Source of the DNA: the human T2T-CHM13v2.0 reference genome, Homo sapiens
Direction: 5' to 3' (one strand)
NCBI RefSeq assembly: GCF_009914755.1
Contig: NC_060938.1
DNA: 64,000 nt
Part shown: positions 4,451 through 6,462 of the stretch, piece after piece
Layout of the letters: each line of letters starts with the position of its first letter
Numbering within the stretch: the first letter of the stretch is position 1
Made by a program: the position numbers and the translations under genes
The notes under the pieces: model-generated
Databases searched by the model: none
The model's input: only the letters and a program-made list of their open reading frames with translations
What the model was told of the DNA's origin: nothing

Positions 4451-4507
4451 GGAGAAACAAATAGAACAAACCAAAGTTATGGAGAAAGTATGTGTGTGAA
4501 CTTTATT
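4451..4507 (-). terminator. Candidate intronic polyadenylation site for the short isoform
   Basis: AATAAA (4507-4502), CA about 22 nt downstream (~4480), then U/GU-rich element UUUGGUUUGUUCUAUUUGUUUC; UGUA motifs upstream near 4590-4610. Confidence 0.55.
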
Positions 4508-5343
4508 TCATCATGAGAAAATTACTTCTGTGCAGTAACAGAGAATACTGATATCTATATGATGATAGGCTTTTCTTTGTATTCAGATACATACCTTATA
4601 TTTGTACACAATATATAAAATTCATGGAGGAAATTAATTTCTACAGTACAGTTTCTTTGTTGGAAGAGAACTTGTTCCGTTTGTTTCATCTAGAAAATGA
4701 CCCCCAGTTCTGTGACTGTGGTACCAAGGATCGCAGTTCCAATCCTGTAATTTATTAAATTAGACACCATAATCTTATGAACATTAAAATAAACTGAGGC
4801 GCTACATCCTCCTGCAGGATGAAACGAGAGACATAAGTGCTCAGGCTGTTATGCTAATAACTGATTTTTACCAGAATAGTATGATTCCCATGATGTATTA
4901 TGAATAGAAATAGTTTTCCCGCAGATCTGATAACACATATTAGCAACATTGCTACAAATTTCTCTCTGCTCTGCAGGCATGCACTTCACTCTTCAATCAA
5001 ACCACCTTGTACACACATGGGAAATGAGGCCATCACCAGCAAGGGCCTTCTGCGTTGCATCTAGGAAAGACTCTTGGAGGGCTTTAGCAGTTAGTATGGT
5101 ATTTTGAGAAAAGAGGCAACTGCTCTCAAACTGATAGGTCATCCCTGAGAGAAGGTGCTAAAATGATAATTCTGGGGGAAGCTGTAGCTACCACATCACT
5201 GTACTCCAAATGGGAACAGGTCATGTGGGCATTTTCCCTCAGCATATCCTTCTCTTGGAATAGCATCACTTAGACTGACAACTGCTCCCCAAAGCACTGT
5301 TTTCACGGCTAGGGGCCTTTCATCCTTGCTGTAGGATTCAAAA

Positions 5344-5365
5344 TTGTGCTTGTTTTTAACCATGT
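5344..5365 (-). promoter_or_regulatory. Extensively paired miR-218-5p site with TDMD-type architecture
   Basis: mRNA 5'-ACAUGGUUA-AAAA-CAAGCACAA-3' pairs with nt 1-9 and 13-21 of miR-218-5p (UUGUGCUUGAUCUAACCAUGU). Confidence 0.88.
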
Positions 5366-6268
5366 GAAGCATTTTAGGGTGACTGGCACATGTTGAGGTT
5401 TGTGGGAAGTGGGAAAAAAAACACCACCATAGTTCTTTTAGCTAACATCTTGAACTTGAACAAAATCAACATAATTAGTTCTGCAGAGGGAAGTTATGGA
5501 GAATCCCGGTGAGGTGGGGGGGTGATTTCTTTGATTAAAATGACACCCCAAAGTGTCAGAATGCTTTGGCACCAGCCACAAATACCTCCTTGTAGGTTTA
5601 ATTTCATGTGTCTTGCTTACTCTTAAAATGAAAATGTTAAAAGCCTCAGAGGTTATATCTGGCCATCAAATTCAAGCCTCTCATCTGAGACACATTACTT
5701 GTCTTTGATGACCAAAATATTTAAAGTATAGCTAAGAAGCAAAAATTCTCTAGAGATGAACCTTGTATGGTGGCTCTCGGTAGCCTAGCCAAGACTGAAG
5801 GGACTGGCAAAGATGAAAATGGCGGGTAATGCGAAGTTGCTGGTCTCTTCCTGTTTGGTGCCCACAGGAAGTCTCAATCCTGGTGCTGACGGCCTCCGCT
5901 TTGGGTATGAAACGGAGGCAGTCTAAGTGGGTAAGCCAGGAGCAGCCAACAGGCCCTCTCTAAACAGCTCTAGCACCCCACCACCCATTTGAAACACATT
6001 CAGTCATACAAATCCACGACTGGAAAGAACCTAGGTCCCACCCTCAGAACAAGCAAGTACTACAGAGTAATTTAGAATCATCTGGGCAAAACTGGCACAT
6101 GATGTGTATCGGTGGAGAATGGGAGCCTGCTCTAGAGCCTAGATACATTTGTCTTACACACCAGGGGCACATTCAGGCCTTCATTTTTCAGCTTCTTCAA
6201 CTGCAGCTTATTTAGATTGTTATCAAAGGAAGCCGCCGGCCCAAGCCATTGGAACTGCCGATGTGGAA

Positions 6269-6277
6269 TCTTTGGTT
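6269..6277 (-). promoter_or_regulatory. miR-9-5p 8mer seed match in short-isoform 3' UTR
   Basis: mRNA AACCAAAGA is complementary to miR-9 nt 1-9 (UCUUUGGUU). Confidence 0.4.
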
Positions 6278-6412
6278 TGATCACATCCACATACCATAGG
6301 CTCTCTAAAGGCAGGAGAGGAACAGCGGCTCTGTGCAGAATGCAGAGCAAGTCATGGAAACACTTCAGGAATGTGGGCAGTGGTGGGGTTACCTCCGGGC
6401 TTGCCAGCCACT

Positions 6413-6462
6413 TTAGATGCCACGCAGTTCTCGCTCTGAGGGATACTGCTGAAGGGCCTTAC
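6413..6462 (-). CDS. TRIM9: Short-isoform (TRIM9s) C-terminus by read-through of the exon-7 donor: [16 protein letters not shown]
   Basis: Frame stays open past the donor to TAA at 6413-6415; the tail matches my recollection of the SPRY-less TRIM9 isoform. Confidence 0.9.

What the first reader, a model, noticed from the sequence alone, without database searches (positions are those of the whole stretch)
4451..6462. One splice-versus-polyadenylation choice couples loss of the SPRY domain to exposure of the miR-218 trigger
Seen: using the exon-7 donor (AGG|GTAAGG at 6462) removes 4451-6462 as intron. Skipping it adds [16 protein letters not shown] and keeps a UTR containing the miR-218 site, with a well-formed poly(A) site at about 4507-4451. 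Established: TRIM9 acts in netrin-1/DCC axon branching and guidance; miR-218 is encoded in SLIT2/SLIT3 introns, is motor-neuron enriched and represses ROBO receptors. Inference: the long/short isoform ratio could set miR-218 dose, linking the Netrin-DCC and Slit-Robo pathways at the RNA level. I do not know of this isoform-level coupling being described.
Basis: partly seen in the sequence, partly recalled or inferred. Interest (0 to 1): 0.78.

Follow-up and report, generated by a model that had tools for sequence, protein, structure and literature searches.

The report
TRIM9 short-isoform end with miR-218 site

Summary
All sequence observations hold. Exon 6601-6463 (minus strand) ends GAGG|GTAAGG. 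Read-through adds [16 protein letters not shown] and a TAA stop at 6415-6413. A 1,936-nt 3'UTR follows, down to AATAAA (4507-4502) and the RefSeq transcript end at 4477.

At 5344-5365 lies a 22-nt miR-218-5p site. It is identical to the TRIM9 TDMD (target-directed microRNA degradation) trigger of Li et al. 2021, and their 226-nt reporter maps to 5268-5493.

The poly(A) site is the TRIM9-S site of Herron et al. 2023: a twin UGUA at 4650-4642, promoted by CPSF6/NUDT21 and shifted by mTORC1. SPRY-coding exons lie downstream of it. One processing choice therefore does decide both SPRY loss and trigger inclusion.

My searches found no paper that states this coupling outright. A 2026 computational paper already relates TRIM9 polyadenylation changes to predicted miR-218 changes.

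Three things weaken the functional inference:
- Only reporters were tested; the endogenous trigger was not deleted.
- miR-218-5p is unchanged in Zswim8-knockout E18.5 mouse brain (log2FC -0.017, P 0.95).
- Other annotated exons can truncate TRIM9 without the trigger.

New here: the long isoform's 3'UTR has its own seed-only miR-218 8mer, so the switch changes the type of site rather than its presence.

The parts
6463..6601 (-). It encodes the C-terminal part of the FN3 domain.
   Evidence: Hub RefSeq table. Translated. Pfam fn3 matches profile positions 48-81 of 84, E 1.1e-4, 22.7 bits, which is below the 25-bit cut-off because only part of the domain is present.
6461..6462 (-). GT of the 5' splice site GAGG|GTAAGG. 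Using it gives SPRY-containing TRIM9-L; reading through it gives TRIM9-S.
   Evidence: (donor context).
6413..6463 (-). Read-through coding tail [16 protein letters not shown] plus the TAA stop (6415-6413).
4477..6412 (-). TRIM9-S-specific 3'UTR, 1,936 nt. The same stretch is intronic for TRIM9-L.
   Evidence: RefSeq exon 4477-6601 (hub table).
5344..5365 (-). miR-218-5p site of TDMD architecture: an 8mer seed match, a 4-nt target loop opposite a 3-nt miRNA loop, and 9 bp to miRNA nt 13-21.
   Evidence: Identical to the human TRIM9 target sequence in Supplemental Table S1 of Li et al. 2021.
5268..5493 (-). The 226-nt 'long' trigger fragment that Li et al. 2021 cloned behind GFP. The flanks were needed for activity.
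   Evidence: The gene-specific parts of primers Trim9-226nt-F and -R map to 5473-5493(-) and 5268-5288(+). The fragment is unique in the genome. Flank requirement.
4642..4650 (-). Twin UGUA motif (TGTACTGTA), the CFIm/CPSF6 enhancer of the TRIM9-S poly(A) site, 173 nt upstream of the annotated end.
   Evidence: Herron et al. 2023 describe UGUAYUGUA (Y = C in human) more than 170 nt upstream of the cleavage site, followed by two further UGUAs. Those are found here at 4608-4605 and 4591-4588.
4502..4507 (-). AATAAA poly(A) signal of TRIM9-S.
4451..4477 (-). Annotated transcript end (4477) and the T/GT-rich downstream element.
   Evidence: Hub table (exon 4477-6601). Sequence.

Best explanation
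Window 4477-6601 (minus strand) is the composite terminal exon of the known short TRIM9 isoform, TRIM9-S.

How the choice works. If the donor at 6463|6462 is spliced, the whole stretch leaves as part of a long intron, and the downstream exons add the SPRY domain and a different 3'UTR (TRIM9-L). If cleavage and polyadenylation at AATAAA 4507-4502 wins, 16 extra codons end the protein after the FN3 domain. That poly(A) site is boosted by CFIm bound to the twin UGUA at 4650-4642. The resulting mRNA keeps a 1.9-kb 3'UTR.

What the 3'UTR holds. It contains the published miR-218-5p TDMD trigger at 5344-5365. So, by gene structure (shown), the trigger reaches the cytoplasm only on SPRY-less TRIM9-S mRNA. 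The mTORC1/CPSF6/NUDT21 control described for the S/L switch must therefore also control trigger supply (inferred).

Mechanism of the trigger. In reporters it pairs with AGO-loaded miR-218 through seed plus 3' end, induces 3' tailing and lowers miR-218 (shown by others). ZSWIM8 involvement is suggested, not proven.

My judgement. At natural expression levels the effect on total miR-218 is small or confined to particular cells. The site may act at least as much as a strong miR-218 target site on TRIM9-S.
For: Sequence anatomy.

Identity with the published trigger and reporter.

miR-218-5p sequence checked against the genome: exactly 2 loci, on contigs C4 and C5, both matching Rfam mir-218 at 94.5 and 92.3 bits.

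Duplex: -23.4 kcal/mol, with nt 1-9 and 13-21 paired.

Li et al. 2021 (passages, Discussion and Table S1 read):
- the TRIM9 reporter lowers miR-218 by 30-55% in 293T cells;
- A/U tailing appears;
- 3-nt mutations in the P1 or P2 duplex abolish the effect;
- retargeting the site to miR-16 works;
- the roughly 20-nt site alone barely works.
An independent group obtained miR-218 decay from a TRIM9-based site, with pri-miR-218 unchanged (PMC11014252).

Herron et al. 2023 (abstract, sections 6 and 13, and passages read):
- Trim9-S uses an upstream poly(A) site, skips exons 8-14 and lacks SPRY;
- CPSF6 loss cuts use of the TRIM9-S poly(A) site by 51%;
- twin-UGUA mutation cuts it by 73%;
- Tsc1/TSC2 loss shifts expression to the long form.

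SPRY exons lie downstream of the S poly(A) site.
Against: No deletion of the endogenous TRIM9 trigger is reported in the papers I found.

In 293T cells, ZSWIM8 knockout increased tailing but gave no clear rise of miR-218. miR-218 was not elevated in ZSWIM8-knockout 293T, K562 or MEF cells.

Jones et al. 2023, Supplemental Table S1, Brain sheet: mmu-miR-218-5p log2FC -0.017, P 0.95, at about 7,500-11,000 CPM. In Table S2 the tailed fraction is 0.020 in wild type and 0.018 in knockout. I saw only the brain rows, not the other tissues.

CLASH hybrid abundance was low: mean RPM 2.9, in 2 samples.

Predicted local structure is unremarkable (z +0.73).

The relaxed pairing pattern (8 nt, 1-8 nt loop, 7mer) occurs 70 times in the genome, so pairing alone proves little.
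Confidence: 0.8

Rival explanations
1. The TRIM9-S/TRIM9-L ratio sets the cellular dose of miR-218 by TDMD, for example in motor neurons. Through miR-218 targets such as ROBO1/2, it couples Netrin-DCC signalling to Slit-Robo signalling.
For: The trigger is confined to TRIM9-S mRNA (hub table). The reporter is active and conserved miR-218 targets are de-repressed. The switch is regulated. In CFIm/CPSF6 knock-down data sets, TRIM9 3'UTR shortening coincided with higher model-predicted miR-218 (PMC13270998); that is a prediction, not a measurement. The host genes of miR-218 (SLIT2/SLIT3), its motor-neuron enrichment and ROBO targeting are recalled knowledge. Here I checked only that the two mir-218 loci exist, on contigs C4 and C5.
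Against: miR-218-5p is unchanged in Zswim8-knockout E18.5 brain, although Trim9-S is reported as the predominant embryonic brain form. There is no endogenous loss-of-function test. A second published miR-218 trigger, in SSR1, exists, so TRIM9 is not the only candidate. TRIM9-L also binds miR-218 through an 8mer.
Confidence: 0.15
2. The site works mainly in the usual direction. It is a very high-affinity miR-218 target site (seed plus 3' supplementary pairing) that represses TRIM9-S. TRIM9-L is repressed more weakly through its seed-only 8mer. The isoform choice then tunes how strongly miR-218 controls TRIM9, not the reverse.
For: Both terminal 3'UTRs carry exactly one miR-218 8mer: S at 5351-5344 and L at window -14876..-14883. 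Duplex energies are -23.4 kcal/mol for S and -10.9 for L. A study reporting that miR-218-5p targets TRIM9 by luciferase assay is summarised in a review (PMC13038310); I did not see the original paper, or which UTR was used. miR-218 is not ZSWIM8-sensitive in brain.
Against: Reporter data show miRNA loss and tailing that depend on the 3' pairing, which is the TDMD signature. The two roles do not exclude each other.
Confidence: 0.35
3. The complementarity is fortuitous and has no function at natural expression levels. The reporter effects reflect over-expression only.
For: 70 genomic matches to the relaxed pattern. Low CLASH abundance. The site's phyloP100way score is only 2.46. No ZSWIM8 effect in brain.
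Against: Human and mouse sites differ only by one base in the loop, and both paired arms are kept. Hybrids were found in both species, with a tailing ratio of 6.5. Lentiviral, near-physiological expression was also tested; I did not see the TRIM9 result of that experiment in the passages read.
Confidence: 0.1

Closest known systems
TRIM9/miR-218 TDMD trigger (Li et al. 2021, Genes Dev, PMC8653786)
   Same: It is the same 22 nt (5344-5365) and the same 226-nt flanking fragment (5268-5493).
   Different: In the main text I read, that paper treats it as 'a 3'UTR trigger'. Where 'isoform' appeared in the passages shown it meant miRNA isoforms. It does not discuss that this UTR belongs only to the SPRY-less isoform. 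Its Supplemental Fig. S2 (a PDF I could not read) may show the gene model.
Trim9-S/Trim9-L coding-region alternative polyadenylation controlled by mTORC1 and CFIm through a twin UGUA motif (Herron et al. 2023, eLife, PMC10476966)
   Same: Same poly(A) site: AATAAA 4507-4502, twin UGUA 4650-4642, four UGUAs in total, and the same consequence, loss of SPRY.
   Different: The paper makes no link to miRNAs. The terms miR, microRNA and miRNA each occur once; the one passage shown was in the reference list. TDMD never occurs.
APA-dependent loss of TDMD triggers (MIRNAPEX, RNA 2026, PMC13270998)
   Same: States that APA can add or remove TDMD triggers and lists TRIM9/miR-218-5p among 8 pairs. TRIM9 shortening coincided with higher predicted miR-218.
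   Different: It uses tandem-3'UTR indices (PDUI) and model-predicted miRNA changes. The passages I read mention neither the splice-versus-poly(A) nature of the TRIM9 switch nor the change in protein.
BCL2L11 trigger for miR-221/222 (Li et al. 2021)
   Same: An mRNA whose 3'UTR trigger and encoded protein are proposed to act in one pathway.
   Different: The BCL2L11 trigger was deleted at the endogenous locus, and that had an effect. The TRIM9 trigger was not.

Membership tests
TDMD trigger (ZSWIM8 pathway) | Seed pairing of at least 7 nt to the miRNA | tested here: met
   8mer at 5351-5344; miRNA nt 1-9 paired.
TDMD trigger (ZSWIM8 pathway) | At least 8 contiguous pairs to the miRNA 3' region, separated from the seed by a bulge of at most 6 nt (the criteria quoted in Li et al. 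2021) | tested here: met
   9 bp to nt 13-21; loops of 3 nt on the miRNA side and 4 nt on the target side.
TDMD trigger (ZSWIM8 pathway) | Lies in a non-translated part of a cytoplasmic transcript | tested here: met
   About 1,050 nt after the TAA, inside RefSeq exon 4477-6601 (hub table). This holds only for TRIM9-S transcripts.
TDMD trigger (ZSWIM8 pathway) | Expression of the trigger lowers the mature miRNA, with tailing, and not the passenger strand or the pri-miRNA | not testable with these tools
   Reported by others for reporters.
TDMD trigger (ZSWIM8 pathway) | The miRNA rises when ZSWIM8 is lost | tested here: not met
   Read from published tables: E18.5 mouse brain log2FC -0.017, P 0.95. 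No clear rise in 293T cells, nor in 293T, K562 or MEF cells. Other tissues and motor neurons were not seen.
TDMD trigger (ZSWIM8 pathway) | Removing the endogenous site raises the miRNA | not tested
   No such experiment found.
Composite terminal exon (intronic polyadenylation, coding-region APA) | A functional 5' splice site that can be read through into an in-frame stop | tested here: met
   GAGG|GTAAGG; 16 codons, then TAA.
Composite terminal exon (intronic polyadenylation, coding-region APA) | A poly(A) signal with upstream and downstream elements inside the intron, and an annotated or measured 3' end | tested here: met
   AATAAA 4507-4502, four UGUAs, a T/GT-rich tract and the RefSeq end at 4477. 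PAPERCLIP and 3' RACE evidence is reported by Herron et al..
Composite terminal exon (intronic polyadenylation, coding-region APA) | Downstream exons encode a domain that the short form lacks | tested here: met
   Pfam SPRY, E 7.5e-6 and 6.7e-8, on exon-like pieces at window -9459..-9830 and -12012..-12293.

The most novel reading that the evidence does not exclude
The mTORC1/CFIm-controlled splice-versus-poly(A) decision after TRIM9 exon 7 flips the mRNA's relationship to miR-218. TRIM9-L carries a seed-only 8mer and is an ordinary miR-218 target. TRIM9-S carries the seed-plus-3' site and destroys miR-218. In cells where TRIM9-S is abundant relative to miR-218, growth signalling would then tune miR-218, and through it targets such as ROBO, while at the same time removing the DCC-binding SPRY domain from the protein.
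Probability: 0.15. Interest if true: 0.6.

Novelty: already known. Interest (0 to 1): 0.3.

Why it matters
If endogenous TRIM9-S really lowered miR-218, a single RNA-processing decision would change a guidance-pathway protein and a neuron-critical miRNA together. mTORC1 disorders such as tuberous sclerosis, where the switch is already known to shift, would then gain a miRNA component.

As things stand, the value of this finding is mainly as a pointer. Two published stories, the TRIM9-S poly(A) switch and the TRIM9 miR-218 trigger, concern the same 2-kb exon, and no paper I could search connects them. The models needed to test the link already exist: Tsc1-knockout neurons, CPSF6-knockout cells and Zswim8-knockout mice.

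Tried and rejected
- Rfam scan of 4300-6700 gave only a sub-threshold chance hit (sau-19, 23 bits against a gathering score of 80, E 0.43). There is no structured RNA family here.
- Folding the 226-nt trigger fragment showed no special stability (-45.8 kcal/mol, z +0.73; 152 of 200 shuffles folded at least as well). I draw no accessibility conclusion from it.
- A genome-wide count of a relaxed miR-218 TDMD-like pattern gave 70 matches against 7 for the reversed-pattern control. The control is unfair, because the reversed pattern contains a CpG, and most matches are probably untranscribed. I use the count only to say that pairing alone is weak evidence.
I rejected it as unsupported.
- A CFIm paper cited by Herron et al. 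(PMC8989530) mentions neither miR-218 nor TRIM9.
- I could not read the PDF supplements of Li et al. 2021, including Fig. S2 with gene models. I did not read the non-brain sheets of Jones et al. 2023. I could not fetch mouse or other vertebrate DNA to test conservation myself.
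Full report
**1. What is in the sequence**

TRIM9 runs on the minus strand.

- **Exon and donor.** The exon annotated at 6601-6463 ends ...TCTGAGG and is followed by GTAAGG.
- **Read-through.** Translating through the donor gives ...[23 protein letters not shown] and a TAA at 6415-6413.
- **3'UTR and poly(A) site.** From there a 1,936-nt untranslated stretch runs to 4477, where RefSeq ends an alternative exon, 4477-6601 (hub table). 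AATAAA lies at 4507-4502, 25 nt upstream of that end. T/GT-rich sequence follows to about 4451.
- **Upstream motifs.** Four UGUA motifs lie upstream, including a twin TGTACTGTA at 4650-4642, 173 nt before the end.
- **Protein domains.** The shared exon encodes the end of an FN3 domain. That match is partial and below Pfam's cut-off, as expected for a fragment. Exon-like pieces far downstream, at window -9459..-9830 and -12012..-12293, match Pfam SPRY at E 7.5e-6 and 6.7e-8.

Read-through plus polyadenylation therefore does give a protein without SPRY. The only corrections are that the spliced intron extends well beyond 4451, out of the window, and that the suggested second cleavage site near 3600 has hexamers but no annotation.

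**2. The miR-218 site**

- **Seed match.** The 8mer AAGCACAA at 5351-5344 is the only one on the gene's strand in the 64-kb window. By itself it is not above chance: 2 matches on both strands against 4.45 expected.
- **Full site.** The full 22-nt element at 5365-5344 is another matter.
- **Source of the miRNA sequence.** I took the miR-218-5p sequence from a published table and checked it against the genome. It occurs exactly twice, on contigs C4 and C5, and both loci match Rfam mir-218 at 94.5 and 92.3 bits.
- **Pairing.** The duplex pairs miRNA nt 1-9 and 13-21, with a 3-nt loop on the miRNA side and a 4-nt loop on the target side. Its energy is -23.4 kcal/mol, against -34.0 for a perfect complement. 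This is the classic architecture of a trigger for target-directed microRNA degradation (TDMD).

**3. It is the published trigger**

Supplemental Table S1 of Li et al. 2021 (PMC8653786) lists a TRIM9/miR-218-5p hybrid whose human target sequence is letter-for-letter the window's 22-mer. The mouse version differs by one base in the loop. The gene-specific parts of their 'Trim9-226nt' cloning primers map to 5473-5493 and 5268-5288, and that fragment is unique in the genome.

From the passages and Discussion I read:
- The fragment, placed behind GFP, lowered miR-218 by 30-55% in 293T cells.
- It caused A/U tailing.
- It lost activity with 3-nt mutations in either paired arm.
- It could be retargeted to miR-16.
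- It barely worked as the bare ~20-nt site.
- ZSWIM8 knockout increased tailing but gave no clear rise in miR-218.
- The endogenous TRIM9 site was not deleted, whereas the BCL2L11 site was.

A second laboratory used a TRIM9-based site and saw miR-218 decay without a change in pri-miR-218 (PMC11014252).

**4. The splice-versus-poly(A) switch is also published**

Herron et al. 2023 (PMC10476966; abstract, sections 6 and 13, and passages read) report the following:
- Trim9-S uses an upstream poly(A) site, skips exons 8-14 and lacks SPRY.
- Loss of CPSF6 cut use of the site by 51%, and mutating the twin motif cut it by 73%.
- Tsc1 or TSC2 loss (high mTORC1) shifts expression to the long form.

The window shows exactly this layout. 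That paper does not discuss miRNAs: TDMD never occurs in it, and miR, microRNA and miRNA occur once each, with the passage shown lying in the reference list.

**5. Is the coupling itself in print?**

Five full-text searches found no paper that says the trigger belongs only to the SPRY-less isoform:

| Search terms | Papers holding all terms |
|---|---|
| TRIM9 + miR-218 + target-directed | 4 |
| TRIM9 + ZSWIM8 | 6 |
| TRIM9 + miR-218 | 17 |
| TRIM9 + TDMD | 7 |
| TRIM9 + polyadenylation + microRNA + isoform | 8 |

The nearest is a 2026 computational paper (PMC13270998). It states that alternative polyadenylation can remove TDMD triggers. It reports that, in CFIm/CPSF6 knock-downs, TRIM9 3'UTR shortening coincided with higher model-predicted miR-218. 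It uses tandem-UTR indices and predictions, not measurements.

Two limits apply. The library lacks most subscription journals. I also could not read the PDF Supplemental Fig. S2 of Li et al., which may draw the gene model.

**6. What weakens the functional inference**

- **(a) ZSWIM8 insensitivity in brain.** In Zswim8-knockout E18.5 mouse brain, mmu-miR-218-5p is unchanged: log2FC -0.017, P 0.95, about 7,500-11,000 CPM per replicate. Its tailed fraction does not rise (0.020 in wild type, 0.018 in knockout). These figures come from Supplemental Tables S1 and S2 of Jones et al. 2023. I assigned the rows to the Brain sheet because it is the first data sheet, rows are sorted by P value, and the neighbouring rows match between the two tables. 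Herron et al. note that Trim9-S seems to be the predominant form in embryonic mouse brain, so this is a relevant negative. Bulk tissue could still hide a cell-type effect, and I did not see the other tissues.
- **(b) Cell lines.** Li et al. themselves note that miR-218 is not raised in ZSWIM8-knockout 293T, K562 or MEF cells.
- **(c) Low hybrid abundance.** The CLASH hybrid was rare: mean RPM 2.9, in 2 samples.
- **(d) A second trigger.** A second published miR-218 trigger exists in SSR1.
- **(e) 'One choice' is too simple.** RefSeq also lists an alternative donor that ends the exon at 6393 (GAG|GTAACC), 20 nt after the short-form stop. It also lists a 150-nt cassette exon, 4744-4595, which in phase reads GLELRSLVPQSQNWGSFSR and then a stop. 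Both would end the frame before SPRY while splicing the trigger out, presumably giving NMD-prone RNAs.

**7.

I fetched the rest of the gene from the same assembly.
- The long isoform's last exon starts after ...CCCCAG. Its reading frame ends with a stop at window -14294..-14296.
- Its 3'UTR runs about 2,025 nt to the annotated gene end at -16321, where an AATAAA sits about 15 nt upstream.
- That UTR contains exactly one miR-218 8mer, at window -14876..-14883, with no 3' pairing: -10.9 kcal/mol.

So both isoforms bind miR-218. The switch exchanges an ordinary repression-type site for a TDMD-type site. A review summarises a study in which miR-218-5p represses TRIM9 in a luciferase assay (PMC13038310). 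I did not see the original paper or which UTR it used.

**8. Verdict**

The feature is real and correctly read, but each component is already described: the TRIM9-S terminal exon, its regulated poly(A) site and the miR-218 trigger. The coupling follows trivially from putting the two papers on one map. It seems not to have been stated outright, and it remains untested.

- **Best-supported mechanism.** CFIm-enhanced cleavage competes with splicing at the exon-7 donor. Cleavage yields SPRY-less TRIM9-S, whose UTR can engage AGO-miR-218 through seed plus 3' pairing.
- **Effect on miR-218.** Available knockout data argue that any effect on bulk miR-218 is small. A cell-type-restricted effect, for example in motor neurons, is not excluded.

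Noticed in passing
L002 2117-2124 (-), which is window -14876..-14883, outside the window: The 3'UTR of the long TRIM9 isoform holds one seed-only miR-218 8mer, about 580 nt after its stop codon. The isoform switch therefore swaps the type of site rather than adding a site.
   Followed up: partly
window 4595-4744 (-): This annotated 150-nt cassette exon, read in phase, hits a stop after 19 codons. It contains the twin UGUA enhancer of the TRIM9-S poly(A) site. Its strong donor (AAG|GTATGT) lies only 87 nt upstream of the AATAAA, so U1 binding there might suppress that poly(A) site.
   Followed up: partly
window 6391-6393 (-): An annotated alternative donor, GAG|GTAACC, lies 20 nt after the short-form stop codon (exon 6393-6601). 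Transcripts using it would encode the short C-terminus but lose the trigger, and would probably be NMD substrates.
   Followed up: no
G000:C14:77347207-77347227 (+): A second genomic site differs from the first 21 nt of the TRIM9 miR-218 site by a single loop base. There is no extended similarity, since the 226-nt fragment has only one genomic match. I did not check whether it is transcribed.
   Followed up: no
G000:C6:7156853-7156872 (-): The published SSR1 miR-218 trigger sequence (Li et al. Table S1) was recovered by the genome pattern scan. The scan gave 70 matches in all, 2 of them the antisense strands of the mir-218 genes.
   Followed up: no
   Followed up: no
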